In this document: positions 18,077-40,893 of the stretch, in pieces
Layout of the letters: every line of letters begins with the position of its first letter
Numbering within the stretch: the first letter of the stretch is position 1
Notes under the pieces: generated by a model
Told to the model about the DNA's origin: nothing
The model's database searches: none
What the model saw: the letters and a program-made list of their open reading frames with translations, nothing else
Translations under genes and position numbers: made by a program
From: Candidatus Woesearchaeota archaeon
GTDB taxonomy: Archaea > Nanobdellota > Nanobdellia > Pacearchaeales > GW2011-AR1
Assembly: GCA_964490795.1 (NCBI GenBank)
Contig: CAZBDY010000003.1
Coordinates: 2,752-66,751 of the forward strand
Direction: 5' to 3'
Length of the DNA stretch: 64,000 nt

Positions 18077-20758
18077 ATGTCAGAAAAAGATATAGAAAAA
18101 AGAAAAGAGCAAGTAGTTAGTTTTTTGTTTAAAAATAAATCAATTTTAATAGTTCTTGCTTTAATTATTATCTTAAGTTTATCTTTTTATACCAGAACAG
18201 TAAATATAGAAAATCTCAAAGACATAACTACAGGAGACTATACCTTAGGTCCTGATTTAGATCCTTTCTTGTTTTTAAGATATTCAGAAAATATTATTGA
18301 AAATGGAAAATTAATGGAGTATGATAATATGAGGTTTGTTCCTCTTGGTTATGATACTTCAAGAGAATTATTAGGATTGCCTTATATGATGGCTTATTTT
18401 CATAATTTTATTAATCTTTTTTCTGATACAACAATAAACTATTCAGCTGTTATTTTTCCTGCTTTTATGTTTGTTCTAACTGCTTTGGCTTTTTTTCTCT
18501 TTATAAATAAAGTTTTTGAAGAAAATAAAAATGGAGGAACAATTGCTTTAATATCCACTGCCTTGTTAATTGTCTCAACTTCTTTAGTAGCAAGAACTGT
18601 GGCTGGAATTCCAGAAAAAGAATCAGTTGGATTTTTTTTCCTGTTTTTATCATTTTACTTTTTAATATCCTCTTGGAAATCTAAAAAAATTAAAAACACC
18701 TTTATCTTATCTTCTCTGGCAGGTATTTCTACAGCTTTAATGGCTCTTTCATGGGGTGGTTGGAGAGCTTATGTTTTAACTCCAGTTGCAGTATTTTTTA
18801 TTATATGCTTTTTTTTGAATCAAATTAATAAAAAAGAATTTTTTATTTATTCTTCATGGTTTATAATATCAATATTTTTAACACTTTCATTTACTGCAAG
18901 AAACTCTTTAATCAGCTTAATCACTTCTCCAATTTCAGGAATAGCTTTTATGGTGTTTTTTTTATTACTAACTGATTTTATAATCGCAAATACTAAAATA
19001 AAAAATATTAAATTTTTAAAAAATTTAAGAAGTAAATACCCTGAAAAACTAATCTCCTTTATTATATTTTTAATTCTCATTTTTATCTTGGCAACTTTTA
19101 TATTGGGGATCTCATTTATTCCTGACTTTATTGAAAAAATAGTTTTTTCACTAAAACAACCATATTCTGATAGATTATCTTTTACTGTAGCTGAAAACAG
19201 ACAACCCTATTACACAACCTGGAAAGGAAATTTTGGACCAATAATAAGAGGAATTCCTTTATTTTTCTGGTTATTTTTTGTCGGTTCTATCTTACTGGCT
19301 TATAATGCTATTAAAAAAATAGAACTAAAAGGAAGATTAATTTTAATTTCTTCTTATATATTATTTTTATTTGGATTAGTTTTTTCCAGATACTCTTCAT
19401 CAAGTATTTTTAATGGTGAAAATGGAATAAGTAGAATAATATATTTTGGTTCTTTATTCTTAATTTTATTTGCCTTTTCTTATTTATATTACAAATATTA
19501 TAAAGAAAAAAAACTTTCTGAGTTTAGTAAAATAAACTATCCTTATCTATTCTTGCTTGTCTACTTTTTCATTTCAATTATAGGGGCAAGATCTGCAGTA
19601 AGGCTAATTATGGCACTAGCCCCTCCTGCAACAGCTATGGCAGGATATCTTCCTGTTGCAATATTACAAAAAATAAAAAATAAAAAAGACATGGTAAGAT
19701 CTATTTTGATTATATTATCTATTATAGTTTTAATAGCAACTTCTTTCACATTTTATAAAAATTATCAATCCACAATAGGACAAGCAAAAGCAATGGTTCC
19801 CTCTTCATATACTAATCAGTGGCAGTTAGCTATGTCCTGGGTAAAAGAAAATACCTCTCAAGATGCTGTATTTTCACACTGGTGGGATTATGGTTACTGG
19901 ATTCAAACTATGGGAAAAAGGGCAACAATTTTAGATGGTGGAAACTCTATAGCTTACTGGAATCATCTATTAGGAAGACATGTTTTAACAGGACACTCTG
20001 AACAAGAAGCTTTAGAATTTTTATATCCTCATAATGCCACTCATCTCTTAATTGATTCAACAGAAATTGGGAAATATGCTGCTTACTCTTCAATTGGAAG
20101 TAATGAAAATTATGACAGATACAGCCAAATGCCAACTTTTCATTTAGATGAATCCCAAACAAGAGAGACAAAAAACAAAACAACTTATGCTTTTATAGGA
20201 AATATGTTTTTAGACCAAGATTATACCCTAAAAACAGAACAAGGACAAAAGTTTTTTCCACAAAGAAAAGCAGGAATTCCTGGAGTCCTGTTAACAATAG
20301 ATAATCAAAACAACATAGAACAACCAGAAGTAATCTTTATTTATCAAAATCAACAATATAATATCCCCTTAAAATGTGTTTATATTGATGATAAAAAATA
20401 TGATTTTGAAAATGGGTATGGGGGTTGTTTATATATAGTTCCAAAAGTTACTGTTAATGGAATCAACAAAATAGGTTCAGCTTTATTTATATCTGAAAAA
20501 TCAATGAAAGCTAACTGGATAAAATTTTATTTATTTGATGAAACTGAAAATTTTAATCTTGTTCATAAAGAACAAAATCTTTATGTTCAAAGTTTACAAC
20601 AACAAGGATATGATATTTCTGATTTGGTATACTATGGAGGCATACAAGGCCCTATCAAAATATGGGAAATTACCTATCCTCAAGATATTGAATATCATAA
20701 AGAATATTTATCAAAAGAATACCCTCCAGAATTAAGACAAGCAAAAGATGTATTCTGA
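18077..20758 (+). CDS. aglB: Archaeal oligosaccharyltransferase AglB (STT3 family)
   Basis: 893 aa; N-terminal multi-TM domain and the catalytic WWDYGYW motif (HWWDYGYWIQTMG). Confidence 0.9.
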   Translation: MSEKDIEKRKEQVVSFLFKNKSILIVLALIIILSLSFYTRTVNIENLKDITTGDYTLGPDLDPFLFLRYSENIIENGKLMEYDNMRFVPLGYDTSRELLGLPYMMAYFHNFINLFSDTTINYSAVIFPAFMFVLTALAFFLFINKVFEENKNGGTIALISTALLIVSTSLVARTVAGIPEKESVGFFFLFLSFYFLISSWKSKKIKNTFILSSLAGISTALMALSWGGWRAYVLTPVAVFFIICFFLNQINKKEFFIYSSWFIISIFLTLSFTARNSLISLITSPISGIAFMVFFLLLTDFIIANTKIKNIKFLKNLRSKYPEKLISFIIFLILIFILATFILGISFIPDFIEKIVFSLKQPYSDRLSFTVAENRQPYYTTWKGNFGPIIRGIPLFFWLFFVGSILLAYNAIKKIELKGRLILISSYILFLFGLVFSRYSSSSIFNGENGISRIIYFGSLFLILFAFSYLYYKYYKEKKLSEFSKINYPYLFLLVYFFISIIGARSAVRLIMALAPPATAMAGYLPVAILQKIKNKKDMVRSILIILSIIVLIATSFTFYKNYQSTIGQAKAMVPSSYTNQWQLAMSWVKENTSQDAVFSHWWDYGYWIQTMGKRATILDGGNSIAYWNHLLGRHVLTGHSEQEALEFLYPHNATHLLIDSTEIGKYAAYSSIGSNENYDRYSQMPTFHLDESQTRETKNKTTYAFIGNMFLDQDYTLKTEQGQKFFPQRKAGIPGVLLTIDNQNNIEQPEVIFIYQNQQYNIPLKCVYIDDKKYDFENGYGGCLYIVPKVTVNGINKIGSALFISEKSMKANWIKFYLFDETENFNLVHKEQNLYVQSLQQQGYDISDLVYYGGIQGPIKIWEITYPQDIEYHKEYLSKEYPPELRQAKDVF

Positions 20759-20761
20759 AAA

Positions 20762-20770
20762 TTTAAAAAC
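20762..20770 (+). promoter_or_regulatory. TATA box TTTAAAAAC
   Basis: 29 nt before ATG 20791. Confidence 0.5.
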
Positions 20771-20790
20771 CTCTTTTTCCTGATTATTTT

Positions 20791-21798
20791 ATGGATACTT
20801 TATTGTTAATACCCTTACTTGTAGCTTTTTTCATAACTTTTTTAATTCTTCCTATCTGGATATCAAAAGCAAAAAAGATTAAACTTGTCTGGAAAGATAT
20901 GAATAAAAAACAGGAAACAGAAATCGCTGGTTCTGGAGGTTTAATCGTTGTTCTTGGTTTTCTTCTCGCAGTATTAATCTATGTTGCTATTAAAACATTT
21001 TATTTCCATTCAACAACAAACTTAATTGAAATTTTTGCTCTTCTTACATCTGTACTAATTTTATCAGGAATAGGTATTATTGATGATTTACTTGGCTGGC
21101 ATCAAGGAGGTTTAACAAAAAAATTTAGAATGATTTTATGTTTATTTGCAGCTATTCCCTTAATGGTAATTAATGCCGGGGTAAATCAAATATCTTTTCC
21201 TATAATTGACGGAATAAGCTTAGGATTACTTTATCCTCTTTTTTTAATCCCATTAGGCATTATTGGGGCAGCAACTACTTTTAATTTTTTAGCTGGTTTT
21301 AATGGGTTAGAAGCAGGAAACGGAATTTTAGTTATCTCTGCTATATCTCTTGTTGCTTATTTGACTGGAAATGCTTGGTTGGCTTTAATTGGATTAATAA
21401 TGGTTTTTTCATTACTTGCTTTTTTAATATTTAATATGTCTCCTTCCAAAATTTTTCCAGGAGATGTCTTAACCTATCCTATTGGAGGGCTAATAGCAAT
21501 AATAGCTATATTTGGCAATTTTGAAAAAATTGCTGTCTTCTTTTTTATACCCTATATTTTAGAAACTTGTTTAAAGGTAAGAGGCAAATTAAAAAAGTAC
21601 TCTTTTGCTCAACCTCAAGAAGACAACTCTCTTGAATTAAAATACAACAAAATATACAGCTTAAATCATCTTGCTATCTTTTTATTGAAAAAAATAAAAA
21701 ATAAAGTTTATGAAAAAGATGTTGTTCTCTCAATATGGTTGTTTCAGCTAATTATCATCTTGTTAGGATTTTTAATATTTAAAAATACAATTTTCTAA
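20791..21798 (+). CDS. Glycosyltransferase family 4 (MraY/WecA-like) dolichyl-phosphate HexNAc-1-P transferase, AglH-like
   Basis: IIDDLLGW and FNFLAGFNGLEAGNG motifs; polytopic. Confidence 0.8.
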   Translation: MDTLLLIPLLVAFFITFLILPIWISKAKKIKLVWKDMNKKQETEIAGSGGLIVVLGFLLAVLIYVAIKTFYFHSTTNLIEIFALLTSVLILSGIGIIDDLLGWHQGGLTKKFRMILCLFAAIPLMVINAGVNQISFPIIDGISLGLLYPLFLIPLGIIGAATTFNFLAGFNGLEAGNGILVISAISLVAYLTGNAWLALIGLIMVFSLLAFLIFNMSPSKIFPGDVLTYPIGGLIAIIAIFGNFEKIAVFFFIPYILETCLKVRGKLKKYSFAQPQEDNSLELKYNKIYSLNHLAIFLLKKIKNKVYEKDVVLSIWLFQLIIILLGFLIFKNTIF

Positions 21799-21804
21799 AA
21801 TAAA

Positions 21805-22743
21805 ATGAAAAAAGAGAAAGTTTCAATAATAATTCCTTGCAAAGAAATAGACAAGTATACAAAAAAATGTATAAATCAGTGTTTAAAACTTAATTGTGAT
21901 AATTTTGAAATTATAGTTTTGCCAGATAAAAAACAAGAGATTAATACAAAAAATAAAAATTTAAAAATAATTTCTTGCACTGGAAAACCTTCTTTAAAAA
22001 GAAATTTAGGAATGAAAATTTCCAAAGGAGAGTATTATGCTTTTATTGATTCAGATGCTTATCCTGAAAAAAACTGGCTTAAAAATGCAATAAAACATTT
22101 CCAAAAAAAGGATGTTGGTTTGGTTGGAGGTCCAAATCTAACTCCAAAAGAATCAAATTTTTGGGAAAAAATTTCAGGAAAAGTTTTATCTAATTTTCTT
22201 GTATCTGGAATTGCCTCTATTAGATATAAAAAAACAAGAAACCAGTTTACAAAAGAGTTGCCTTCCTGTAATTATATTGTAAAAAAAGAACTTGCCACAA
22301 AATACTCGCAAGAATTTTTAACAGCAGAAGATTCTGAATTTTGTTTTAATATAACAAAAAAAGGAAAAAAGATTTTATATGCCAATGATGTTATTGTTTA
22401 TCACCATAGAAGAGATTCTTTTTTCAAACATTTAAAGCAGATTTTTATTTATTCAAGAGATATTGCTTGGTTAACAAAAAAAGAGTTTTCTTTTGACAAA
22501 TTATATTACTCAATTTTATCATTATTTACTCTTGCCTTTATATCTGGAATTATTCTCTCATTTATCTTTCCTTTAATAAAAACTCTTTTCCTTATTTTTC
22601 TAGTTTTTTATCTATTAATAATCTTTATTACTTCTTTTCACAAAAATATAAAAACAAGTTTAGCTGTTTTTGTTACCTCAATTTTAACTCATTTTTCTTA
22701 TGGTTTTGGTTGGTTATATGGTATTTTTGTTAGGCAAAGATAA
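21805..22743 (+). CDS. GT2 family glycosyltransferase with C-terminal TM segments
   Basis: VSIIIPCKE...FIDSDAYPEKNWL...AEDSEF. Confidence 0.8.
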   Translation: MKKEKVSIIIPCKEIDKYTKKCINQCLKLNCDNFEIIVLPDKKQEINTKNKNLKIISCTGKPSLKRNLGMKISKGEYYAFIDSDAYPEKNWLKNAIKHFQKKDVGLVGGPNLTPKESNFWEKISGKVLSNFLVSGIASIRYKKTRNQFTKELPSCNYIVKKELATKYSQEFLTAEDSEFCFNITKKGKKILYANDVIVYHHRRDSFFKHLKQIFIYSRDIAWLTKKEFSFDKLYYSILSLFTLAFISGIILSFIFPLIKTLFLIFLVFYLLIIFITSFHKNIKTSLAVFVTSILTHFSYGFGWLYGIFVRQR

Positions 22744-22786
22744 TCAATCTCTTTTATACCACTTTAAAATAGTTACAAAAGAAAGA

Positions 22787-22795
22787 TTTATAAAT
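22787..22795 (+). promoter_or_regulatory. TATA box TTTATAAAT
   Basis: 29 nt before ATG 22816. Confidence 0.5.
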
Positions 22796-22815
22796 AAATT
22801 TCTATATTTATTCTT

Positions 22816-23691
22816 ATGGCATTAGAGCAATATTTGTCAGAATTAGAGAAAAAAGATAAACTTAATGTAGATTTTCATAATCACGGACAGACAGGAGACA
22901 GATTTAGAAAACCAAGAAAAGAATTATGGAGTAAAATTAAAGGACTCATTTTTGATGAATCTCCTAAAGGATTATATGATATTTTAGAAAAAATCAAAAA
23001 TTCTAGATTAGATGTTATGTATCTTACAAGCAGTGTTCTTCCAAATAAAGATAATCAAAGATATCAACAATGGACTTCTCATCAAGAGCTGGAAAAAGCA
23101 AGACAAAGAGGATGGCAGTTAGAACAAGGACAATATTATTTATTTGCAAAAAAACAAGGAAAAATAGTTGTATTAGGGCATTCCAAAGAAATAGAAACTC
23201 AAAAAGGGCATATCATACTATCTGGCTGTAATTCTGAAAAAATTTCTTCTCCAGATTCAACTGAATCACTAGAAAAAGCTGTTCTTGAATCAAATGATAA
23301 TGAATTACTAATCGGAGAAAAATATAATCCAAGATTAGATGCAGTTCAAGTAGATGGAAATTTTTATCTCCCTTTTTTCTTAAATAACTGGAGAGCAAAA
23401 AAACAAGCAAGAAAACATAATGTTCCTTTAGTATATAATGAAGATGGACATCATCCAAAAGATATAGGAGATACATATAATATTTTTAACTCAGAAGATT
23501 TGAATTATAATTCAGAAATTGAATTTAGAAATTCTATAAAACAAGCTGTGTTAGGCAAAAACTTTAACACAAGATTCGACCCAATTCCTCCACATAGAAT
23601 TTTGCATCATATTATTATGACAGGACTTAACATAATTAGAGATAAATATGTAGGCTGGAAAGAAAAAGCTAGTGAACAAACTAATCAATAA
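22816..23691 (+). CDS. Hypothetical protein (291 aa); weak metal-hydrolase-like VDFHNHG motif
   Basis: ORF with its own TATA box. Only a weak HxH motif near the N-terminus, so function is not supported. Confidence 0.45.
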   Translation: MALEQYLSELEKKDKLNVDFHNHGQTGDRFRKPRKELWSKIKGLIFDESPKGLYDILEKIKNSRLDVMYLTSSVLPNKDNQRYQQWTSHQELEKARQRGWQLEQGQYYLFAKKQGKIVVLGHSKEIETQKGHIILSGCNSEKISSPDSTESLEKAVLESNDNELLIGEKYNPRLDAVQVDGNFYLPFFLNNWRAKKQARKHNVPLVYNEDGHHPKDIGDTYNIFNSEDLNYNSEIEFRNSIKQAVLGKNFNTRFDPIPPHRILHHIIMTGLNIIRDKYVGWKEKASEQTNQ

Positions 23692-23733: not shown

Positions 23734-26559
23734 ATGAAAATTTTTATTGGTTATCCTCCTACTCTAAGTAAAAAAGGAACAGCAATGTTATCTCAAAACA
23801 GGCAGTTTCAGTGGTTTTCTAATCCTACTTACATGTATCCAGTTATAATGGGTTCTGCAGCCACTTACTTAAATAAAGATTATAATGTTACCTGGATTGA
23901 TTGTATAACTGAACATATTTCTGAATCAGGATTTTATTCTAAATTACAAAAAGAAAAACCAGATTTATTTATTTTTGAAACAAAAACTCCTGTAATAAAA
24001 CAACACTGGAAAACTATAAACAAATTAAAAGAAAGATTTCCAAAATTAAAAATAGCTTTATGTGGAGACCATGTTACCTCATTTCCAAAAGAATCTTTAA
24101 AAAACTCAAAAGTTGATTATGTTTTAACTGGCGGAGATTATGATTTCTTATCAAAAAACTTGGCAGACTATTTGTCTAGCAAAAGAAAAAAACTTGAAAA
24201 AGGAATTTATTATAAGGAAAAGAAAAAAATAAAAAATACAGGAAAATTTCAATTAAAACACAAGTTAGATGATTTGCCTTTTATTAATAGAGATTTAACA
24301 AAATGGAAGAATTATGAAAAAGAATATAATATGGCAAGATTTCCTTTTTTCTATATTATGTCAGGAAGAGACTGCTGGTGGGGGAAGTGTAAATTTTGTT
24401 TAACAGGTAAAACTAAAATTTTGACTAACAAGGGAAGTTTTCCTATTAAAGATATTGTAAATAAAAAAATAGATATAAAAAAAATAAAAATATTAACTCA
24501 TAAAGGAGAATTTAGATCTCTTAAACGAACTTATAAAAGGGAATATAATGGAAATATTCTTGAAATTGAAGCCAATGCTTTAAAAAACAAATTATCTTTG
24601 ACTTCCAACCATAAATTATTTGGAATTAAAAAAGAGAATTTAAACAAAAAAACCCCTTATTTTATTAGAGCAGATAATATGAAAAAAGGGGATTATATTG
24701 CTGTTCCAAAAATAATGAAAACAAAAGATCTCAAAAATATTGATGTTAAAAAAATCCTAGAAAAAGAACCAATAAAAATAAAAACCACTAAAATAATTCC
24801 AAGAAATATAATAAATAAGATTATAGAAAAATATCAGAAAAAAGAATCTCAAAGAAAAATATCCCGGGATTTAAAAATAGACAGAGAAACAGTCAAAAGA
24901 TATATCTCGCTTATTGCTTCCGATGAATTAAAATACAAAAGTAACCCCTTAATATTTGAAAAAAATCTCATTAGATTTGAAAAGGCCAAAAACTATATTT
25001 TAGGAAAAATACCCTTAAATAAAAAGTTCTTAAGATTGATAGGCTACTATTTAGCAGAGGGACATTCATTTAAATCCAAAAATAGGCCCAATTCCTATAC
25101 TCTTGGTTTTACTTTTTCAGAAAAAGAAAAAAAATATGTCGAGGATGTAGTCAATATTTTTAAGCAAATCTTTAAACAAACAAATATTTCCATTCATCAC
25201 AATAGCATTAACCATACTATTCAGATAACAATTTATAATTCTATTCTTGGAATATTATTTAAAAACCTCTTTGGAGAAAATTGCTATAATAAAAAAATCC
25301 CTCACAACTACCTTTTTCTCCCTAAAGATAAACAAAAAGAATTGCTTAGAGGATTATTTAGGGGAGATGGCCATCTTAGAATAAGGAAAGCAGGACAGGG
25401 AGGAAGCGAGTATATTCTAGAGGGTGTTTCAGACACTCTTACTCAACAAATAATTATTATACTTCAAAGAAACAATACTATTCCTAGATTAAGAACTATC
25501 CAACCAACAAAAAATAATGAATCTGTCAAATATTCTATTTCATTATGCCAACAGGATATTAACCAAATTTTTCCTGAAATAAAACTTCCAAAAAGGAAAC
25601 ATCACATAAGAAAAGGAAAGGTATTAAAAAAATTTATATTGGTTCCTATTAAAAATATAAAAAAAAGAAAGCATAAGGGGGAAGTGTATAATCTGGAAGT
25701 GGACAAACACCATAGCTATATAGCAAATAATTTAACAGTGAGCAATTGTTCCTGGCCAAGATTATTTCCTTGTTTCAGAACAAGAAGTGTGGAAAATGTT
25801 TTAGATGAAATTGGAATGTTAATTAAAAAATATAATGCAAAAGAAATTTTTGATGATTCTGGAACCTTAATGGTTGGAAAATGGCTAACTGATTTATGTA
25901 ATGGTTTGATTAGAAGAGGATATAATAAGAAAATTAGATACTCCTGTAATATGAGGTTTAATGCTTTAAAATTAAAAGATTATAAATTAATGAAAAAAGC
26001 TGGATTCAGACTATTAAAATTTGGTTTAGAATCAGCAAGCCAGACAACATTAGATAAACTAAACAAAGGAATTAAAGTAAATCATATTATTAAGGGTTGT
26101 AAAATGGCAAAAAAAGCAGGTTTAACTGTCCACTTAACAATGATAGTTGGTTATCCCTGGGAAACAAGACAAGATGCCTTAAAAACATTTGAACTTGCTA
26201 AATATCTTATGCAGACAGGAAAAGCAGATATCTTACAAGCAACTGTCTTAATTCCTTACCCAGGAACACCATTATGGAAAGATGCTAAAAAAAATAACTG
26301 GTTTTTGTTTTCTCCTTTAGAATATGAGAGATATGATATGAGAGAGCCAGTTTTAAAAGTAAAATCTTTAAATAAACAAGAAAGTGAAAAAGAAAAATCC
26401 AAACAAGTAGCATCAGTTTGTGGAAAAATTTATACTATTTTTCTTACCCCTAGTTATATTTTAGCAAGATTAAAAAATATAAAAAATATTGATGATATTA
26501 AATGGCATTTAAGAGGAATTAGGGCTGTTATAGGTCACTTAACTGATTTTTCTAAATAA
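23734..26559 (+). CDS. B12-binding-domain radical SAM enzyme interrupted by an intein (extein about 491 aa)
   Basis: The N-terminal B12-binding-like region resembles the paralog at 33116. The cysteine triad CWWGKCKF|C is split by a 450-aa insertion, and the radical SAM core continues after it (FGLESASQTTLDKLNKG...). Confidence 0.85.
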   Translation: MKIFIGYPPTLSKKGTAMLSQNRQFQWFSNPTYMYPVIMGSAATYLNKDYNVTWIDCITEHISESGFYSKLQKEKPDLFIFETKTPVIKQHWKTINKLKERFPKLKIALCGDHVTSFPKESLKNSKVDYVLTGGDYDFLSKNLADYLSSKRKKLEKGIYYKEKKKIKNTGKFQLKHKLDDLPFINRDLTKWKNYEKEYNMARFPFFYIMSGRDCWWGKCKFCLTGKTKILTNKGSFPIKDIVNKKIDIKKIKILTHKGEFRSLKRTYKREYNGNILEIEANALKNKLSLTSNHKLFGIKKENLNKKTPYFIRADNMKKGDYIAVPKIMKTKDLKNIDVKKILEKEPIKIKTTKIIPRNIINKIIEKYQKKESQRKISRDLKIDRETVKRYISLIASDELKYKSNPLIFEKNLIRFEKAKNYILGKIPLNKKFLRLIGYYLAEGHSFKSKNRPNSYTLGFTFSEKEKKYVEDVVNIFKQIFKQTNISIHHNSINHTIQITIYNSILGILFKNLFGENCYNKKIPHNYLFLPKDKQKELLRGLFRGDGHLRIRKAGQGGSEYILEGVSDTLTQQIIIILQRNNTIPRLRTIQPTKNNESVKYSISLCQQDINQIFPEIKLPKRKHHIRKGKVLKKFILVPIKNIKKRKHKGEVYNLEVDKHHSYIANNLTVSNCSWPRLFPCFRTRSVENVLDEIGMLIKKYNAKEIFDDSGTLMVGKWLTDLCNGLIRRGYNKKIRYSCNMRFNALKLKDYKLMKKAGFRLLKFGLESASQTTLDKLNKGIKVNHIIKGCKMAKKAGLTVHLTMIVGYPWETRQDALKTFELAKYLMQTGKADILQATVLIPYPGTPLWKDAKKNNWFLFSPLEYERYDMREPVLKVKSLNKQESEKEKSKQVASVCGKIYTIFLTPSYILARLKNIKNIDDIKWHLRGIRAVIGHLTDFSK
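24397..25746 (+). mobile_element. Intein with LAGLIDADG homing endonuclease domain (450 aa)
   Basis: CLTGKTKILT... start; LTSNH block B; LIGYYLAEGH and LFRGDGHL dodecapeptide motifs; ends ...YIANNLTVSN, followed by Cys+1. Confidence 0.85.
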
Positions 26560-27305
26560 TCATTTATAGTTGAAAATTCATACCCTCTATTTTTACAAAA
26601 AACAATATAATTTTCTAACATTTTTAATAACTCTTTACCTGATTTTGTCTTCATAATTTTCATCATTTTGATTTTTCTTAAATCAGAAAACTCCCATGGA
26701 TGAAACACCAACATAGTATAATCTGAAAATAAGAAATTAATTCTAGTGAAAATTTTTGCATAGGTTTTTCCAAAATTTTTAAAAGCCAACCAAAATATAG
26801 GCAATCTTATTAAAGGAAGAACAGAAGGCGGAATCTCTAAAATATTCCCTTTTTTATGAATTTTTCTTGATTTAAAAATATTAAAATATCTTCCTGGAAT
26901 ACAAGTAGGATGTAAAGAAGAGTCATATTTAAACCCAAATTTCTCTAAATCAGAAATTCCTTTAATCTCATATCTGGGTGCTCTAAACCCTTTAACATCT
27001 AATCCTAATTTTTTCACCTTTTTTATTACTTTTTCCAGTTTTTCCATACTTTCTAAATAGCTATCAGAATGAATATAACCATGGCTGGCAATTTCATGTC
27101 CTTTTTTTTCTAATTCTTTAATAAATTTAGGATATTTTTCAGCAAATTTAAGTGTAGTAAAAAAAGTTACCTTAATATTATACTTATCTAACAAGATTTC
27201 TATTTCTTGTAACCCTTTTTTAGAAATTTCAAATTTATCTTTTCCATTAACAAAATCAAACTCTTCTACATCAAAAGTTAATAAAATTTTTTTTTCTTGT
27301 TTCAT
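26535..27305 (-). CDS. Polysaccharide deacetylase (NodB/CE4 family)
   Basis: LLTFDVEEFD...FFTTLKFAEKYP...GHEIASHGYIH. Confidence 0.8.
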   Translation of the reverse strand: MKQEKKILLTFDVEEFDFVNGKDKFEISKKGLQEIEILLDKYNIKVTFFTTLKFAEKYPKFIKELEKKGHEIASHGYIHSDSYLESMEKLEKVIKKVKKLGLDVKGFRAPRYEIKGISDLEKFGFKYDSSLHPTCIPGRYFNIFKSRKIHKKGNILEIPPSVLPLIRLPIFWLAFKNFGKTYAKIFTRINFLFSDYTMLVFHPWEFSDLRKIKMMKIMKTKSGKELLKMLENYIVFCKNRGYEFSTINDYLEKSVK

Positions 27306-27398
27306 TTCACGAAGCTTGTCCTCTACAAGCGAGTTTTTGAAAAAATCTCATTTTTTCATTTCACGAAGATTTACCTCTTAAAGTGAGTTTTTGAAAAC
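27301..27398. repeat. Two tandem copies (period 54 nt) of a 44-nt leader unit containing a hairpin
   Basis: 27301-27344 is TTCATTTCACGAAGCTTGTCCTCTACAAGCGAGTTTTTGAAAAA; 27355-27398 is TTCATTTCACGAAGATTTACCTCTTAAAGTGAGTTTTTGAAAAC. Confidence 0.7.
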
Positions 27399-27419
27399 CC
27401 TCGAAAACTTTTATGGTTT

Positions 27420-28112
27420 TCATTTTAGTAATCTTACTTTAATTAATCTATAAATCATTCCTGGAATATACTTCAATCTTAAGGTACTAAATCCATTTCC
27501 AGGATTTAAAGGAGCATAAACTTCTGCAACTTTAAAATTATTTTTTCTAACTTTATATAAAAACTCAATATCAAAATCAAATGTTGTAGATATAAAATTA
27601 TTATCAATTTTATCCCACACTTGTTTTCTCATAAATTTAGCTCCTGCCTGTGTATCTCTAAAATTCATTCCAAAAACAATTTTTGAAAATAAACTTCCTG
27701 CTAAAGAAACAACTCTTCTTAACTGATTTTCCTGTTTTTTTGCTTTTCCTCTTAAATATTTTGTTGCAATAGAAACCTCATGGTCTTTTAATTTTTCTAT
27801 AATCCTTAAAATCTGCTTAAAATAAAAAGGATCATCAGCATCAATAAATCCAATATAATCATATTTGGCACTATTAAGCCCTTTAACTATTGCTTTTGAT
27901 TTTCCTTTTTCTTCCATATTTATTGCTTTTACAGGCAATTTTTTCTCTGAATTTTTACAAATATCATAAGTAGAGTCAGTACAAGCATTGCAAACCACAA
28001 TTATCTCAAATTTATCAAATATTTTTCCAAATTTTTCATTATACTGTTTTAAAGATTTCTCTATAAATTTTTCCCCATTATGAACAGGAACAATAATTGA
28101 TAATCCTTCCAT
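27420..28112 (-). CDS. GT2 glycosyltransferase, dolichyl-phosphate hexose synthase-like
   Basis: LSIIVPVHNGEKFI...GFIDADDPF... and the 230-aa size of the DPM1/GtrB class. Confidence 0.8.
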   Translation of the reverse strand: MEGLSIIVPVHNGEKFIEKSLKQYNEKFGKIFDKFEIIVVCNACTDSTYDICKNSEKKLPVKAINMEEKGKSKAIVKGLNSAKYDYIGFIDADDPFYFKQILRIIEKLKDHEVSIATKYLRGKAKKQENQLRRVVSLAGSLFSKIVFGMNFRDTQAGAKFMRKQVWDKIDNNFISTTFDFDIEFLYKVRKNNFKVAEVYAPLNPGNGFSTLRLKYIPGMIYRLIKVRLLK

Positions 28113-28132
28113 AATAGTCTTTTTATTTTGGC

Positions 28133-28141
28133 ATATTTAAA
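28133..28141 (-). promoter_or_regulatory. TATA box (TTTAAATAT on the minus strand)
   Basis: Starts 29 nt upstream of ATG 28112. Confidence 0.5.
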
Positions 28142-28185
28142 CCTAACTTAGAAAGCTTTTTATTACTCCTTATTTTAAAATATCT

Positions 28186-29118
28186 ATGAAATGGAAAAAT
28201 ATAAGGAAATTTCTACCATTCATAGGTATCCTTATTTTCATTTATATAGCAATTAAATTAGATTTAATCAGCATAATAAAAGAAATTTCTCAAGTAAATC
28301 TTTTTTATATCTTGCTGGCTTTTTTAGCTTTAATAATCTTTCTTACATCTCAAACTTTAAAATGGTACTCTATAGCAAGATTTCAAAAAATCAAATTTCC
28401 TTTTCTCAAGGCTTGGAAAATAGATTTAATGAGCTCTTTTTACGGATTTATTACTCCTTCTAAAATAGGGAACATAATGAGGGCTGATTATATAAAAAAA
28501 TATTCAGGAAGTTTAGGAAAAGGGGCTGGCAATTTTGTTTTGGAAAAAACTCTTGATTTAGTTGCTTTATTTGTAATTGCTATATTTTTTGGTTTTGTAT
28601 TTAGAAAACAATTTTCTCTAATCTCTTTACAATATTACCTGATTTTCTTAACTCTGTTATTAATTGGATTTTTTATTTTTATTAATAAAACCAGAGCAAA
28701 AAAATTATTAAAAATATTTTACAAACTGCTTCCAAAATCACTACAAGAAAAAGCAAAAATAACTTTTAATAATTTTTATCAGGACATGCCTAAAAAAAGA
28801 TATCTTTTTTTAGCTTTATTAATTAATATATCTAGCTGGATTTTTATGTATTTTGTAACTTATTTAGTCGGTCTCTCTTTAGGAATCAATATCCCTTTTA
28901 TTTATTTTTTAGCTATCTTGCCTATCTCCACTCTTGTAGCTTTAATACCTATCACTGTTTCAGGTTTTGGAACAAGAGAAGCCACTTTAATAGGATTATT
29001 TAGCTTATTTAATGTTTCTGCAGTTAAGGTTTTTTCAATGTCTTTAATAAATGTTTTTATAACTGGATTTATTCCTGCTTTAATTGGTTTTATCTTAATT
29101 TTAAAATATAAAAAATGA
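28186..29118 (+). CDS. UPF0104 / lysyl-PG-synthase-TM-like flippase-type membrane protein
   Basis: 8-TM-type ORF with PITVSGFGTREATLIGLF. Confidence 0.7.
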   Translation: MKWKNIRKFLPFIGILIFIYIAIKLDLISIIKEISQVNLFYILLAFLALIIFLTSQTLKWYSIARFQKIKFPFLKAWKIDLMSSFYGFITPSKIGNIMRADYIKKYSGSLGKGAGNFVLEKTLDLVALFVIAIFFGFVFRKQFSLISLQYYLIFLTLLLIGFFIFINKTRAKKLLKIFYKLLPKSLQEKAKITFNNFYQDMPKKRYLFLALLINISSWIFMYFVTYLVGLSLGINIPFIYFLAILPISTLVALIPITVSGFGTREATLIGLFSLFNVSAVKVFSMSLINVFITGFIPALIGFILILKYKK

Positions 29119-30263
29119 CACAAAAACTAAAATATACAGTTTCACAAAAAGCAGATAAGAAAATTCAAGAAGATATTAAAATAATAAATAAAATTATTTT
29201 AAAACATTTTTCCCCTATATCAATAGTCATGTTTGGAGGATTTGGACATCAAGGTGGAAGTTTTAAAAAACAAAAAAACAAGATTATTCCCTTAAATGAT
29301 TATGACATGTATTTAATAACTAAAAAACTAATATCTGGAGAAAAATTAGAAAAAGTAGGAGAAATCTGTTCTAAAGCATTAGGAAAAGGAGGATTAGAAA
29401 TTGTGGAAAATTATAACAAAAAATGGGATGAAAATGAATTTTTTCATGTTGACTTGCACAATATTACTTTATCTAAATTAAAAAAAAGCTATCCAACTCA
29501 AAGAACCGCTGATTTAAAAACAAGCATTGTAGTTTACGGAAATAAAAATATTTTAAACGAAATTCCTCATATTAAAATCTCAAAATCAGATTCAATAAGA
29601 ATGTTATTTAATAAACTGGACCATTTTCAACTCGCAGAAAATAACTCTAAGATGTTAAAAAATATTTATGCTGTAAAAGGATTCACTGACTTAACTTCTT
29701 CTCTTCTTATATTTTATAATAACTACACATCAAAATATCAGGACAGATTAAAAAAATTTAAAAAAATGCCCTTTCCTAAAGAATTAAAAAAATTAGTTGA
29801 AAAAGCAACTAAAGCTAAACTTTATTATGGATATGAAATAAAAAATACAGAAGAATTTTTCAACCAGTCAAGAAAATGGGTTTTATGGACATTAAAAAAA
29901 ATTCTAAAACAACATCTTAATATAAAATCAGATAATTGGAAAACAATATGCAAAAAAACATATCAAAAACTTCCTTATGTTTATTTTAATGATTATCTTC
30001 ACTCTGACTTTTTATTTTTTGGGCAATATTACCTTAATATAAAATTCTTTTTTGAAGCAAAAAGAAAAAATGAATTTTTACCTCGTTCTTTAACAAGATG
30101 GAGAGATGCTGGATTAATCATAGCTATTTCCTTAATTTTATTTTCAGTTAATGAAAAAAAAGAAGCAGAAAAATATTTGAAAAAATTAACTAACAAAACC
30201 TCCCCATTAAGAGACAGAATTCTAAAATTATACTCAATTTATTATCTTCAAAAATTAGTTTAA
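29115..30263 (+). CDS. Hypothetical protein, possible pol-beta-superfamily nucleotidyltransferase
   Basis: MFGGFGHQGGS...NDYDMYL...HVDLH resembles the G[GS]-x(n)-DxD plus third-carboxylate pattern. Weak. ATGA overlap with the upstream gene. Confidence 0.4.
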   Translation: MTQKLKYTVSQKADKKIQEDIKIINKIILKHFSPISIVMFGGFGHQGGSFKKQKNKIIPLNDYDMYLITKKLISGEKLEKVGEICSKALGKGGLEIVENYNKKWDENEFFHVDLHNITLSKLKKSYPTQRTADLKTSIVVYGNKNILNEIPHIKISKSDSIRMLFNKLDHFQLAENNSKMLKNIYAVKGFTDLTSSLLIFYNNYTSKYQDRLKKFKKMPFPKELKKLVEKATKAKLYYGYEIKNTEEFFNQSRKWVLWTLKKILKQHLNIKSDNWKTICKKTYQKLPYVYFNDYLHSDFLFFGQYYLNIKFFFEAKRKNEFLPRSLTRWRDAGLIIAISLILFSVNEKKEAEKYLKKLTNKTSPLRDRILKLYSIYYLQKLV

Positions 30264-30307
30264 ATTTATAAATATATAAAACTTAAAAACAAAAGAGAGA
30301 TAAAAAA

Positions 30308-30829
30308 ATACCTCAAGCAGTAACTCATTTTTTAATACCAGCAATTTTAGTTTCTTTATTCAGGGATTTTTATCTTAGCAAGAAAAAAAGAAATTTTCCT
30401 CTTCATTATATTCTAATCGCAGGATTATCAGGATTATTGCTTGATATAGACTATTTTTTACAATATTTAACTCTCTCTCCCTCACATAGAATATTTTTTC
30501 ATAATTTATTTGTTCCTCTAACTTTTCTCATTTTAGGATTTGTTTTTATTAAATTTAAAAATAAAGAATTAGGAAAACATAAACTAAAATTATCAACTAT
30601 CTTATTTGTTATTTCTTTTGGAATTTTTACACATCTTTCCCTTGATTTTCTAATACAGGGAAATATATATTCTTTATCTCCTTTTATTACCACAGGATTT
30701 GGTTTAAATTTAATTAAAAAACTTCCTGAATTTTTACAAAATGATATTATTCCTATATTTGATGCTGTTCTTCTTGCTTTTTGGATGATTTGGATTGAAT
30801 TAAGACATAAACTCTCTGATTTTATATAA
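30308..30829 (+). CDS. DUF457/YdjM-like membrane-bound metal-dependent hydrolase; start codon unresolved
   Basis: The frame is open from 30287 and encodes (ATA)PQAVTHFLIPAILVSLF...LLDIDYF...FTHLSLDFL. No ATG/GTG/TTG occurs before the TTG at 30437, which would remove the conserved N-terminal His helix. Confidence 0.5.
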   Translation: MPQAVTHFLIPAILVSLFRDFYLSKKKRNFPLHYILIAGLSGLLLDIDYFLQYLTLSPSHRIFFHNLFVPLTFLILGFVFIKFKNKELGKHKLKLSTILFVISFGIFTHLSLDFLIQGNIYSLSPFITTGFGLNLIKKLPEFLQNDIIPIFDAVLLAFWMIWIELRHKLSDFI

Positions 30830-30844
30830 TCAAGATAAATTAAA

Positions 30845-30853
30845 TTTAAATAT
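30845..30853 (+). promoter_or_regulatory. TATA box TTTAAATAT
   Basis: 29 nt before ATG 30874. Confidence 0.5.
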
Positions 30854-30873
30854 CCTAATTTTGTCTCATTAAA

Positions 30874-31890
30874 ATGATACTAGTAACAGGAGCAACAGGT
30901 TTTATAGGAAGTCATTTAGTTGAACAACTTATAAAAGAAAACAAGAAAAAGTTAGGTAAAAAAGAAAAAATCAGATGTCTTGTTTTGAAAGAAGACCCCA
31001 TATTAAAACAAGTAAATAAAAAAAGAATAAACTTATTAAAAAAACTTAAAGTAGAAATTGTTTATGGAGATTTATTAAAACCAGAAACTTTGGATAATGC
31101 ATTAAAAAATGTTGATAAAGTTTTTCATTTAGCAGCAATCTCAAAACCAATGAATATCCCTACACAAAAATATTATGATATAAATGTCACCGGTGTAAAA
31201 AACTTATTACAAGCTGCTGAAAAAAATAAAGTAAAAAAAATAATTCATATCTCTACTATGTCTGTATTTGGATATTCAAGAGACAAAAAACCTTTAACTG
31301 AAAATTCTCCTAAACTTCCTGTTTCTGATTATGGAAAAAGCAAAAAACAAGGAGAACAACTTGTTTTAAATTTTTGTAAGAAAAACAAAATTAAGTTAAA
31401 TATTATTCGTCCCCCAATGGTTTTTGGAGAAAGAGATTTTCAGTTTCTTAAATTATTTAAAGGAATTAATACTGGTTTTTTCCCATTATTAAAAAATGGA
31501 AAGGCAAAATTTGAGTTTTGTTATGTTAAAAATCTTGTTTATGGCATTCTTCTTATAGACAAAAAAGCAAAAAATCTTGAAAATTATAATATAACCGGTG
31601 GAAAAAAATATACAATAAAAGAAGTATTTGAAAAAATAGCAGAATTAGAAGGGAAAAAACTAATTTACTTTCCTGCCTGGTTATTTAAACTAACTGGGTA
31701 TGTCTTAGAAATAATTTATCCAATATTTGGAAAACAACCTCCTTTTAATTCAGGAACATCTGACTGGATGACAAAAGATAATATTATAAATATCTCAAAA
31801 ATAAAAAAATTAGGATATAAACAAAAAATTCCTTTAGAAAAAAGCTTGAAAAACACAATTAAATATTATAAAAAAAACAACTTACTATGA
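30874..31890 (+). CDS. NAD-dependent sugar-nucleotide epimerase/dehydratase (extended SDR)
   Basis: ILVTGATGFIGSHLVEQL Rossmann motif; YGKSK catalytic YxxxK. Confidence 0.85.
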   Translation: MILVTGATGFIGSHLVEQLIKENKKKLGKKEKIRCLVLKEDPILKQVNKKRINLLKKLKVEIVYGDLLKPETLDNALKNVDKVFHLAAISKPMNIPTQKYYDINVTGVKNLLQAAEKNKVKKIIHISTMSVFGYSRDKKPLTENSPKLPVSDYGKSKKQGEQLVLNFCKKNKIKLNIIRPPMVFGERDFQFLKLFKGINTGFFPLLKNGKAKFEFCYVKNLVYGILLIDKKAKNLENYNITGGKKYTIKEVFEKIAELEGKKLIYFPAWLFKLTGYVLEIIYPIFGKQPPFNSGTSDWMTKDNIINISKIKKLGYKQKIPLEKSLKNTIKYYKKNNLL

Positions 31891-37139: not shown

Positions 37140-37172
37140 ATTATTCTATATTTTTTTAGTTTTTATTTGTTT

Positions 37173-38042: not shown

Positions 38043-38064
38043 ATCAACTTCTCAAAAATAAAAT

Positions 38065-39396: not shown

Positions 39397-39416
39397 ATAA
39401 CTCAACTAAAAAAGAT

Positions 39417-39425
39417 TTATTTAAA
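39417..39425 (-). promoter_or_regulatory. TATA box (TTTAAATAA on the minus strand)
   Basis: Starts 29 nt upstream of ATG 39396. Confidence 0.5.
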
Positions 39426-39473
39426 CCTTATTATTCTCAAATATAACCTTTTCTAAATTATGAATTAAATTTT

Positions 39474-40831: not shown

Positions 40832-40851
40832 TAATATAAAAATTATCAATA

Positions 40852-40860: not shown

Positions 40861-40893
40861 TATTCTTCTTTTTTCTAATATAATCCGTAAAAT

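What the first reader, a model, noticed from the sequence alone, without database searches (positions are those of the whole stretch)
24397..25746. Homing-endonuclease intein inserted inside the Fe-S cysteine triad of a B12-binding radical SAM enzyme
- **What the sequence shows:** the ORF 23734..26559 reads ...SGRDCWWGKCKF | CLTGKTKILTNKGSFPIKDIV...(450 aa)...GEVYNLEVDKHHSYIANNLTVSN | CSWPRLFPCFRTRSVENV.
- **Intein hallmarks in the insert:** Cys1, an LTSNH block B, two LAGLIDADG motifs, and a terminal Asn followed by Cys+1.
- **Effect of removing it:** excision recreates CWWGKCKFC. This aligns with CPYNCLFC of the intein-free paralog at 33116..34543.
- **Consequence (inference):** the third cluster-ligand cysteine would be the +1 splice nucleophile. 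The unspliced precursor then cannot assemble its 4Fe-4S site, and both splicing cysteines are thiol-redox sensitive. That would fit a redox-gated maturation switch.
- **Unusual details:** the penultimate intein residue is Ser instead of the usual His.
- **Precedent:** inteins in radical SAM proteins are known (the Pyrococcus MoaA intein). I do not know of one in this position or in a glycan-cluster B12-rSAM enzyme.
Basis: partly seen in the sequence, partly recalled or inferred. Interest (0 to 1): 0.7.

Follow-up and report, generated by a model that had tools for sequence, protein, structure and literature searches.

The report
Intein splitting a radical-SAM iron-sulfur motif
A self-splicing, mobile protein element (an intein with its own homing endonuclease) really does sit just before the third iron-sulfur cysteine of a B12-type radical SAM enzyme in this DPANN archaeon, but it is one more member of a recurrent lineage of inteins at this site rather than a new kind of switch.

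Summary
ORF 23734..26559 (941 aa) holds a 450-aa intein at 24397..25746. Removing it gives a 491-aa protein that matches more than 100 intein-free orthologues (480-536 aa, about 70% identity, full length) across ...SGRDCWWGKCKF|C[AS]WP.

The insert has all intein hallmarks. Its model (pLDDT 88) matches the intein endonucleases PI-PkoII, TliVMA and PI-SceI.

The site is not new:
- A search seeded with this intein found 36 inteins at C-x(3-5)-C-x2|C in many radical SAM families. These include this host family, other B12-rSAMs, AmmeMemoRadiSam enzymes, the Rv2578c family and small activases.
- They are each other's nearest relatives and usually lack the penultimate His (3/36 against 235/270 elsewhere).
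- NCBIfam already curates intein-containing Tes and Rv2578c radical SAM models. Their coordinates map to this same point.
- The Pyrococcus abyssi MoaA intein has a published Cys-3/Cys1 redox disulfide, the arrangement seen here (C219-K-F-C222).

The likeliest reading is a selfish homing intein that must splice before the enzyme can work. The redox gate is an untested analogy. Verdict: new member of a known kind, moderate interest.

The parts
23734..24396 (+). N-extein, 221 aa. It holds the B12-binding (Rossmann-like) domain and the first two cluster cysteines: C214 (24373..24375) and C219 (24388..24390, position -3 relative to the intein). It ends ...SGRDCWWGKCKF.
   Evidence: Pfam B12-binding at residues 42-133 (E 6e-4, below its cut-off). 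The junction alignment with 14 intein-free orthologues is exact. Coordinates.
24397..25746 (+). Intein, 450 aa, class 1 by its termini: Cys1 (TGT 24397..24399), penultimate Ser, terminal Asn450 (AAT 25744..25746).
   Evidence: Pfam and NCBIfam intein models. AF2 model pLDDT 88.3, pTM 0.85. Foldseek top hits PI-PkoII 2cw7 (E 8e-22), TliVMA 7qsu/7qss, PI-SceI, PI-PfuI. PDB sequence hits 2cw7 and the KlbA intein 2jmz.
24598..24612 (+). Intein block B, LTSNH (the TxxH motif: Thr69 and His72).
   Evidence: Thr and His are invariant in the alignments of inteins at the rSAM site (A1, A3).
24793..24915 (+). Helix-turn-helix module (intein residues about 133-173) between the N-terminal splicing lobe and the endonuclease. 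It is probably an extra DNA-recognition domain.
   Evidence: NCBIfam HTH_Cbp1 and IS21-transposase HTH hits at intein residues 103-181. Three helices in the AF2 model. Pfam HTH_23, HTH_28 and HTH_38 are recorded on the allelic inteins P0121, P0384 and P0386. The role is inferred.
25027..25065 (+). LAGLIDADG motif 1 (FLRLIGYYLAEGH), with the catalytic Glu.
   Evidence: Pfam LAGLIDADG_3. G..EG is invariant in 23 rSAM-site inteins.
25339..25374 (+). LAGLIDADG motif 2 (ELLRGLFRGDGH), with the catalytic Asp.
   Evidence: GDG is conserved in at least 90% of A3. The fold matches I-DmoI and I-SceI.
25678..25746 (+). C-terminal splicing blocks F and G (GEVYNLEVDKHHSYIANNLTVSN). Block F position 4 is Asn; the penultimate residue is Ser; the last residue is Asn.
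   Evidence: V-Y-N, H, Y and the terminal N are invariant in A1/A3. NCBIfam intein_Cterm.
25747..26559 (+). C-extein, 270 aa plus stop. It begins with Cys+1 (TGT 25747..25749), the third Cys of the cluster motif, and carries the rest of the radical SAM core.
   Evidence: Pfam Radical_SAM at residues 678-822, E 2e-15. Alignments to MgmA 9ccb, AprD4 6fd2 and RimO 4jc0.
33116..34543 (+). Intein-free B12-binding radical SAM paralog (475 aa, CPYNCLFC). It is a comparison sequence, not part of the element.
   Evidence: 31% identity to the spliced extein, E 1e-48. The DNA at the equivalent site is only 38% identical to the homing-site 60-mer.

Best explanation
**What it is.** A full-length class-1-type intein. 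It has a Hint splicing domain, an HTH module and a two-motif LAGLIDADG homing endonuclease. It lies in the [4Fe-4S] cluster motif (C-x4-C-x2|C) of a B12-binding radical SAM enzyme of unknown substrate. The organism is a DPANN (Pacearchaeota/Woesearchaeota-like) archaeon.

**Lineage.** It belongs to a group of inteins that occupy this one position, just before the third cluster cysteine, in many radical SAM families.

**How it works (inferred from established intein chemistry).**
1. The gene is translated as a 941-aa precursor.
2. Cys222 (Cys1) makes the N-S acyl shift.
3. Cys672 (+1) takes over the N-extein by trans-thioesterification.
4. Asn671 cyclises and releases the intein.
5. An S-N shift leaves a 491-aa enzyme with CWWGKCKFC restored.

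The freed 450-aa protein is a site-specific endonuclease. It would cut intein-free alleles at the highly conserved DNA that encodes DCWWGKCKF|C[AS]WP and so copy the element in (homing).

**Why this site.** That DNA cannot drift, and the Cys needed as the +1 nucleophile is immovable. Splicing is obligatory for enzyme activity. On present evidence it is not a designed regulator.
For: **Shown here.**
- The insertion is exact, and intein-free orthologues are the rule. All of the best 80 genome loci are uninterrupted.
- All splicing residues are present and conserved across 23-36 related inteins: Cys1, Thr/His of block B, terminal Asn, Cys+1. So are both LAGLIDADG acidic residues.
- The 450 codons stay open at 26% G+C, close to the exteins at 27-28%.
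- The structure model is confident and matches intein endonucleases. In the precursor model the extein part matches the B12-rSAM enzymes AprD4, MgmA, TsrM and OxsB.
- Intein-free alleles are nearly invariant at first and second codon positions of TGC TGG TGG GGN AAR TGY AAR TTY|TGY.
- The distribution is sporadic. Only a handful of clusters of the same host family carry the intein (P0121, P0241, P0384/P0419, P0386/P0420, P0245). A sister group holds a full-length copy (P0242) and a 170-aa mini-intein without endonuclease (P0235). These are the stages expected of a homing cycle.
- There are 36 inteins at C-x(3-5)-C-x2|C among 306 intein junctions. Their top BLASTP neighbours are almost all other rSAM-site inteins, even across host families.
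- The same genome window carries at least three more inteins: two in RadA and one in an EndoQ-like protein.

**From the literature.** Inteins that lack the penultimate His can splice (PMC4031507).
Against: - No experiment shows splicing or endonuclease activity for this copy.
- Block F position 4 is Asn and the penultimate residue is Ser. Both depart from the commonest catalytic helpers, so the kinetics may be unusual.
- Allelic inteins are only 40-50% identical while their exteins are 49-53% identical. The element is therefore old in this gene family, and recent homing is not demonstrated.
- The census was seeded with rSAM-site inteins, so the clustering of that group is partly a retrieval effect.
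- The frequency among orthologues could not be measured without bias. The 'best 80' ranking disfavours split matches.
Confidence: 0.78

Rival explanations
1. **Conditional (redox- or Fe-S-gated) protein splicing.** Under oxidising conditions Cys219 (-3) and Cys222 (Cys1) form a CxxC disulfide, or Cys1 pairs with Cys+1. Either would block the first splicing step. The oxygen-labile radical SAM enzyme would then be made only when the cell is reduced. A variant: metal or cluster binding to the pseudo-motif C214-x4-C219-x2-C222 of the precursor holds Cys1 and delays splicing.
For: - The sequence shows the Cys-3/x/x/Cys1 arrangement directly.
- The same arrangement is reported to control splicing of the P. 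abyssi MoaA intein through a reversible disulfide. That intein is also in an oxygen-sensitive enzyme (PMC3922620; PMC10663303).
- Cys1-Cys+1 disulfide control is reported for the Pab PolII intein.
- Any Cys1 intein at this site automatically has the arrangement, and 36 such inteins exist.
- The non-His penultimate residue is strongly enriched at this site: His in 3/36 against 235/270, Fisher p 6e-22, not corrected for phylogeny. This could reflect adaptation to the site.
- Relatives of this intein sit before the cluster or redox cysteines of IscU, HgdC/BcrA-type activases, ferredoxin motifs and thioredoxin reductase.
Against: - Nothing was tested for this intein.
- The CxxC geometry is a by-product of inserting a Cys1 intein before the third Cys of CxxC. 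It needs no selection for regulation.
- Inteins that require Cys+1 will land on conserved cysteines, and most of those are metal or redox ligands. The enrichment is therefore expected from selfish homing alone.
- DPANN organisms of this type are mostly anaerobes, where the trap would seldom engage.
- The penultimate-residue pattern can be simple shared ancestry.
Confidence: 0.17
2. **Decayed, non-splicing insertion.** The gene would be inactive or would serve only as an endonuclease carrier, and other radical SAM genes such as the paralog at 33116..34543 would cover the function.
For: - The penultimate His and the block F Asp are absent.
- A second B12-rSAM gene lies 6.5 kb downstream.
Against: - Every essential splicing residue is intact, and the whole 941-codon frame is open in a 27% G+C genome.
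- The same substitutions are shared by dozens of inteins in conserved genes.
- Extein residues that are invariant in orthologues are all kept.
- The paralog is only 31% identical and belongs to another subfamily.
Confidence: 0.04
3. **Assembly chimera or native extra domain** rather than an intein.
For: None beyond the general risk with metagenome assemblies.
Against: - Independent assemblies from other samples carry homologous inteins at the identical junction (P0121, P0241, P0419, P0420, P0245).
- The frame is continuous and the composition uniform.
- Orthologues lack the segment precisely.
Confidence: 0.01

Closest known systems
Pyrococcus abyssi MoaA intein (Callahan et al. 2011, Nat Struct Mol Biol; read here only through reviews PMC3922620 and PMC10663303)
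   Same: - It is an intein in an oxygen-sensitive enzyme that the reviews call the oxidoreductase MoaA.
- It has Cys1 with a Cys at extein position -3. The published reversible Cys-3/Cys1 disulfide blocks splicing.
- The window intein has the same C-x-x-C1 arrangement (C219-K-F-C222).
   Different: - The host enzyme family differs: a B12-binding rSAM with a C-x4-C-x2-C motif.
- The organism is a mesophilic-type DPANN archaeon rather than a hyperthermophile.
- I could not retrieve the Pab MoaA sequence or the original paper. That its site is the same CX3CX2|C point is inferred from the -3 position, not verified.
- No redox data exist for the window intein.
NCBIfam NF045703 'tetraether lipid synthase Tes, intein-containing' and NF038136 'intein-containing Rv2578c family radical SAM protein'
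   Same: - Both are curated models of radical SAM proteins interrupted by an intein.
- *NF045703.* Model position 611 aligns with Cys+1 of six independent rSAM-site inteins. In P0283 the first triad Cys maps to position 149 and Cys1 to 156. In P0270 the C-extein continues 61 residues for 61 positions.
- *NF038136.* The model (574 positions) divides into 76 + 258 + 240, with the break at the point where P0254 reads CLHGCVY|C.
- The window intein itself matches NF045703 (E 2.8e-18).
   Different: - The host families differ.
- The window protein is far below both whole-protein cut-offs, so it is not a member of either family.
- The Rv2578c intein is a mini-intein of about 258 aa without endonuclease.
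- The site identity is deduced from alignment coordinates, not read from the model consensus.
Archaeal LAGLIDADG intein endonucleases PI-PkoII (2cw7), TliVMA/PhoVMA (7qss, 7qsu, 7qst), PI-PfuI (1dq3), PI-SceI (1vde)
   Same: - The architecture is the same: a Hint splicing domain split by a two-motif LAGLIDADG endonuclease plus an accessory DNA-binding region.
- Foldseek E values run from 8e-22 to 3.5e-13 and TM-scores from 0.45 to 0.73. The sequence hit to 2cw7 has E 8.6e-14.
   Different: - Sequence identity is 10-16%.
- The host proteins differ (DNA polymerase, V-ATPase, RNR).
- The accessory module here is a three-helix HTH.
- Penultimate Ser and block F Asn replace the usual His and Asp.
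Mycobacterium tuberculosis SufB intein and other inteins in Fe-S or redox proteins
   Same: - This is an intein in Fe-S metabolism. The title of PMC8891592 (listed) concerns SufB intein splicing in M. tuberculosis. The proposal that this intein senses oxidative stress is my recollection of the literature, not something read here.
- Many SufB, IscU and ferredoxin inteins of the same sequence family turned up here.
   Different: The SufB intein is not inside a cluster-ligand motif of a radical SAM enzyme.

Membership tests
Intein (class 1 protein-splicing element) | Nucleophile (Cys/Ser) at intein position 1 | tested here: met
   Cys222 of the ORF, TGT 24397..24399. Invariant in A1/A3.
Intein (class 1 protein-splicing element) | Block B TxxH motif | tested here: met
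   T69-S-N-H72. Thr and His are invariant in 23 related inteins.
Intein (class 1 protein-splicing element) | C-terminal Asn followed by Cys/Ser/Thr at +1 | tested here: met
   Asn450 then Cys. N and C are invariant in A3.
Intein (class 1 protein-splicing element) | Penultimate His (block G:6), common but not obligatory | tested here: not met
   Ser449. Among rSAM-site inteins His occurs in 3 of 36. Functional inteins without this His are documented (PMC4031507).
Intein (class 1 protein-splicing element) | Precise in-frame insertion: removal restores a contiguous, conserved host protein | tested here: met
   The spliced product matches 120 or more orthologues end to end, and the junction is exact.
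Intein (class 1 protein-splicing element) | Hint fold | tested here: met
   Predicted only: AF2 pLDDT 88.3, with Foldseek matches to solved inteins. Pfam Intein_splicing is above its cut-off.
Intein (class 1 protein-splicing element) | Actual protein splicing | not testable with these tools
   Needs expression with SDS-PAGE or MS.
LAGLIDADG homing endonuclease (two-motif, monomeric) | Two LAGLIDADG helices, each ending in a catalytic acidic residue | tested here: met
   LIGYYLAEGH and LFRGDGH. Pfam LAGLIDADG_3. The fold matches I-DmoI and I-SceI.
LAGLIDADG homing endonuclease (two-motif, monomeric) | Cleavage of the intein-free allele | not testable with these tools
   The target DNA is highly conserved. 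Cleavage itself was not tested.
Radical SAM superfamily, B12-binding subclass (host protein) | Three-Cys cluster motif near the start of the rSAM core | tested here: met
   After splicing the motif reads CWWGKCKFC (a C-x4-C-x2-C variant). It aligns to the motif of 9ccb (MgmA) and 4jc0 (RimO). C214, C219 and C672 are invariant in A4.
Radical SAM superfamily, B12-binding subclass (host protein) | Radical_SAM core and N-terminal B12-binding domain | tested here: met
   Pfam Radical_SAM E 2e-15. The B12-binding hit in the window protein is weak (20 bits against 32.1), but the domain is recorded on nearly all orthologues. Structural matches to AprD4, MgmA, TsrM and OxsB.
HpnJ / BchE (best NCBIfam names for the host) | Score above the curated equivalog cut-off | tested here: not met
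   HpnJ 157.7 bits against 577.6; BchE 110.9 bits against 481. The host is an unnamed B12-rSAM family, and its function is unknown.
Redox-trap intein (Pab MoaA type) | Cys at extein -3 and Cys1, forming a CxxC | tested here: met
   C219-K-F-C222.
Redox-trap intein (Pab MoaA type) | Reversible disulfide that blocks splicing under oxidising conditions | not testable with these tools
   Known only for Pab MoaA, from the literature.

The most novel reading that the evidence does not exclude
**Claim.** The inteins at the radical SAM C-x(n)-C-x2|C site form a specialised lineage that has spread among paralogous radical SAM families by recognising the shared cluster-motif DNA.

**Proposed adaptation.** The lineage would be adapted to that site in three ways:
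- Intein Cys1 completes a pseudo cluster motif (C214-x4-C219-x2-C222) in the precursor.
- The penultimate His has been replaced by Ser, Lys, Ala or Gly.
- Splicing is coupled to the thiol-redox or Fe-S loading state.

**Consequence.** Maturation of oxygen-labile radical SAM enzymes would then be gated after translation in DPANN, CPR and other anaerobes.
Probability: 0.15. Interest if true: 0.7.

Novelty: new member of a known kind. Interest (0 to 1): 0.36.

Why it matters
For this locus alone the consequences are modest:
- Annotation should split the 941-aa ORF into a 491-aa B12-radical SAM enzyme and a 450-aa intein endonuclease.
- Any functional or structural work on this widespread but unnamed 'DCWWGKC' enzyme family should use the spliced sequence. 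The family occurs in at least 584 species-level genomes.

The wider pattern found while checking is of more use:
- One intein lineage recurs at exactly the third cluster cysteine of many radical SAM families.
- Public annotation largely does not recognise it. Names given include 'LAGLIDADG family homing endonuclease' and 'cobalamin B12-binding domain-containing protein'.
- It carries a consistent loss of the penultimate His.

This gives intein biochemists a natural series of Cys-3/Cys1 'redox-trap' geometries. With it they can test whether the Pab MoaA behaviour is general or incidental.

Tried and rejected
**Searches that led nowhere.**
- *Pab MoaA site.* I tried to verify the exact insertion site of the Pab MoaA intein. 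The original paper (PMC3087850, PMID 21460844) and two related reviews are not held. The third protein search, with a profile of 23 rSAM-site inteins, returned no Pyrococcus or Thermococcus protein. The site identity stays inferred.
- *Literature.* Searches for intein with radical SAM, CxxxCxxC, tetraether, Rv2578c or DPANN/CPR found nothing that describes this site. Hits that looked promising were irrelevant: a Campylobacter phage, a Nanoarchaeota genome and RNRdb.
- *Intein frequency among orthologues.* The genome-contig scan gave 80 uninterrupted loci. Ranking by tblastn score disfavours split genes, so no frequency can be claimed.
- *Viral contigs.* There are 231 relatives of the intein family, but none of the best 80 lies at an rSAM triad. 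No evidence for a viral vector.
- *Precursor model.* I hoped to measure Cys-Cys distances, but the coordinates are not exposed. The only usable result is that the sole low-confidence stretches flanking the junction are 216-219 and 674-680.
- *Tree of the intein family.* In an NJ bootstrap, monophyly of the four first-found rSAM-site inteins had only 44% support. The later nearest-neighbour analysis on 36 sequences is clearer but is not a formal phylogeny.

**Readings rejected.**
- A native domain.
- HpnJ or BchE identity of the host.
- The paralog as a second homing target: its site DNA is 38% identical.


Full report
**1.

ORF 23734..26559 on the + strand encodes 941 aa. The stretch 24397..25746 translates to 450 aa. 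It begins CLTGKTKILT and ends NNLTVSN, and the next codon is Cys.

Pfam and NCBIfam call an intein splicing domain, a LAGLIDADG endonuclease and both intein termini, each above its cut-off. They also find Radical_SAM in the C-terminal part and a weak B12-binding match in the N-terminal part.

G+C is uniform: 27.1% in the N-extein, 26.2% in the intein and 28.2% in the C-extein.

**2. It is an insertion, and the junction is exact**

I removed the 450 aa and searched with the 491-aa product. The search gave 6638 hits. The best 120 are 480-536 aa, about 70% identical and cover 100% of the query. Where named, they come from Pacearchaeota, Nanoarchaeota or Woesearchaeota MAGs.

In an alignment of 14 of them every sequence reads ...FYIMSGRDCWWGKCKF|C[AS]WP... 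with no gap at the junction.

The motif is C-x4-C-x2-C. The paralog at 33116..34543 (31% identity) has the canonical CPYNCLFC and needs a one-residue gap.

Sequence alignment to solved radical SAM enzymes puts the three cysteines on their cluster motifs: MgmA 9ccb, hrgCP-GnCtFC, and RimO 4jc0. The +1 residue is therefore, by homology, the third ligand of the SAM-binding [4Fe-4S] cluster.

**3. Anatomy of the intein**

- *Splicing residues.* Block B is LTSNH. The two LAGLIDADG motifs are LIGYYLAEGH and LFRGDGH, each with its acidic residue. Blocks F and G are VYNLEVDKHHSYIANNLTVSN.
- *Accessory module.* A three-helix HTH lies between the N-terminal splicing lobe and the endonuclease. It gives NCBIfam HTH hits, Pfam HTH domains are recorded on allelic copies, and the helices appear in the model.
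- *Intein model.* The AlphaFold model of the intein with 10-residue flanks has pLDDT 88.3 and pTM 0.85. Its best PDB matches are PI-PkoII (E 8e-22), the TliVMA and PhoVMA inteins, PI-SceI and PI-PfuI. The free-standing LAGLIDADG enzymes I-DmoI and I-SceI follow.
- *Precursor model.* The whole precursor has pLDDT 84.8 and pTM 0.60. It matches intein endonucleases and the B12-radical SAM enzymes AprD4, MgmA, TsrM and OxsB. The low-confidence stretches next to the junction are residues 216-219 and 674-680, the two halves of the cluster loop.

**4. The site is recurrent**

*Relatives of the intein.* A search with the intein alone found 119 relatives. Nearly all sit immediately before a conserved cysteine of very different proteins:
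- the same radical SAM family (P0121), and a sister group with a 170-aa mini-intein (P0235);
- small NrdG/PflA-like activases (CNFRCPW|C...N|CYSRELV);
- IscU, HgdC/BcrA-type activases, NuoI-like ferredoxins, thioredoxin reductase, uS19, polyprenyl synthase and UDP-glucose dehydrogenase.

*Wider search.* A profile of five rSAM-site inteins, run against 1.84 billion representative proteins, gave 12063 hits at E ≤ 1e-3.

*Junction mapping.* I mapped junctions in all retrieved proteins. This gave 306 inteins, of which 36 lie at C-x(3-5)-C-x2|C1...N|C+1 of radical SAM proteins. NCBIfam assigns the hosts to several families: HpnJ/BchE-like B12 enzymes, AmmeMemoRadiSam radical SAM enzymes (above cut-off) and the Rv2578c/PA0069 family. 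None of the 306 lies before the first or second Cys of a triad.

*Clustering.* The top BLASTP neighbours of each rSAM-site intein are almost always other rSAM-site inteins, also across host families. The penultimate residue is His in 3 of 36 rSAM-site inteins and in 235 of 270 others (Fisher p 6e-22, not corrected for shared ancestry).

Two cautions apply. The retrieval was seeded with rSAM-site inteins. An early NJ bootstrap on four of them gave only 44% support for monophyly.

**5. Precedent**

*Curated models.* NCBIfam holds two 'exception' models for radical SAM proteins that contain inteins.
- NF045703 (Tes, 1040 positions). Six independent rSAM-site inteins place their Cys+1 at model position 611. 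The C-extein of P0270 continues for 61 residues against 61 positions. P0283 begins its match at the first triad Cys (position 149), with Cys1 at 156.
- NF038136 (Rv2578c family, 574 positions). It divides into 76 + 258 + 240 positions, with the break where P0254 reads CLHGCVY|C.

Both curated inteins therefore sit at the same point. This is a deduction from coordinates.

*Literature.* Two reviews report that the P. abyssi MoaA intein has a native Cys-3/Cys1 disulfide that reversibly blocks splicing. They read this as protection of an oxygen-labile enzyme. The window intein has the same C-x-x-C1 arrangement.

I could not obtain the Pab sequence or the original paper. No open-access paper in the library links inteins to the CxxxCxxC motif.

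*Public annotation.* It does not recognise the rSAM-site inteins I looked up.

**6. Why here, and how it works**

The DNA of intein-free alleles around the insertion point is almost invariant at first and second codon positions (TGC TGG TGG GGN AAR TGY AAR TTY|TGY). The spliced 60-mer of the window is on average 72% identical to them and at most 83%. The paralog's site is 38% identical. Such a site suits a homing endonuclease, and its Cys cannot be lost by the host.

The family with this motif occurs in at least 584 species-level genomes of DPANN archaea and many anaerobic bacteria. The best 80 loci are uninterrupted.

Intein-bearing alleles are few and old: intein identity is 40-50% against extein identity of 49-53%. 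A mini-intein exists in the sister group. These are the hallmarks of a selfish homing cycle.

The same 64 kb holds two RadA inteins and an EndoQ-like intein of the same family as this one.

The splicing chemistry I describe is the established class 1 pathway, applied by inference.

**7. The redox-switch idea**

It is plausible by analogy, and the geometry is there. But that geometry follows automatically from placing a Cys1 intein before the third Cys of a CxxC. An intein that depends on Cys+1 will also tend to land on metal or redox cysteines.

The claim that the precursor cannot bind a cluster is not shown. The precursor still reads C214-x4-C219-x2-C222 in primary sequence, and Cys672 is also present.

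I give regulation about 0.17, and 0.15 for the stronger lineage-wide version.

**8. Verdict**

- The intein is real and the position is as described.
- The host is an unnamed B12-radical SAM family in a glycan and cell-surface gene cluster. Neighbouring genes include STT3, GT2 and GT4 glycosyltransferases, a deacetylase, an epimerase and a flippase.
- The kind is known, so this is a new member of it.
- The lineage-level pattern is the more interesting by-product.

Noticed in passing
window 60009..63977 (-): RadA/Rad51 ORF of 1321 aa with two inteins. One lies in the P-loop (GAYGSGK|CVSKDTNV...TLMHN|SQLGF). The other lies at ...NIVGHA|CLTGDSLIQ...FVVHN|STYRMY. Both have Ser at +1. Neither matches the rSAM-site intein profile at E <= 1e-3.
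   Followed up: partly
window 56983..59442 (-): EndoQ-like PHP-domain protein (N-terminus ADLHVHSRFSRA; relatives are labelled 'TIGR00375 family', PF27218). It carries an intein of the same sequence family as the rSAM intein (profile E 3e-49). Junctions...DIEIIPAH|CLLPDSKINT...NLAVHN|CMTPWFGIFG. Together with the two RadA inteins and the rSAM intein, this makes at least four inteins in 64 kb.
   Followed up: partly
P0163 (metagenome protein, 742 aa, cut at the contig end), P0219: A NuoI-like ferredoxin with two inteins only six residues apart inside one CxxCxxCxxxCP motif (...DYGR|intein|CVFCGL|intein...). The first is before the first Cys and the second before the third.
   Followed up: no
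proteins P0122-P0239 and P0388-P0418: The intein family is widespread in DPANN and CPR metagenomes. It sits almost always just before a functional Cys:
- IscU GNPV|CGD;
- HgdC/BcrA activase NxI|CAAGTG;
- thioredoxin reductase CxT|CD;
- PFOR-beta-like CPG|CGD;
- UDP-glucose dehydrogenase GG|CFPKD;
- a deaminase, HEL|CRALHAEQ.

It also occurs in SufB (junction not read), uS19 and polyprenyl synthase. Of the 306 mapped inteins, 269 have Cys at +1.
   Followed up: partly
window 23734..26559 host family; loci L001-L080: The host enzyme belongs to an unnamed B12-radical SAM family with the invariant signatures QNRQFQWF and DCWWGKC (a C-x4-C-x2-C motif). The family occurs in at least 584 species-level genomes, from DPANN archaea to Omnitrophota, Kiritimatiellia, Planctomycetota and Dehalococcoidia. 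It scores far below the HpnJ and BchE cut-offs, and its function is unknown.
   Followed up: partly
P0245 (890 aa): An allele of the host family has a widened motif, CWWRQNNGCTF|C (C-x7-C-x2-C), and still carries the intein at the same point.
   Followed up: no
loci L091, L095, L105, L108, L116-L120, L131, L140 etc. (IMG/VR contigs): Many viral-contig relatives of the intein share one site...SMG|C...HN|C-x4-5-C-x2-C[HG], in a large protein of 900-1260 aa that I did not identify.
   Followed up: no
window 18077..23691, 26535..31890 and 34540..51042: The rSAM gene lies in a glycan and cell-envelope cluster: STT3/AglB, GT4, three GT2 genes, a polysaccharide deacetylase, LPG_synthase_TM, an NAD-epimerase, two phosphodiesterase-family genes, a FemAB/GNAT-like gene, PMT_2, UDP-glucose dehydrogenase and a Polysacc_synt flippase. 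ORFs 22816..23691 and 29115..30263 have no Pfam match.
   Followed up: partly
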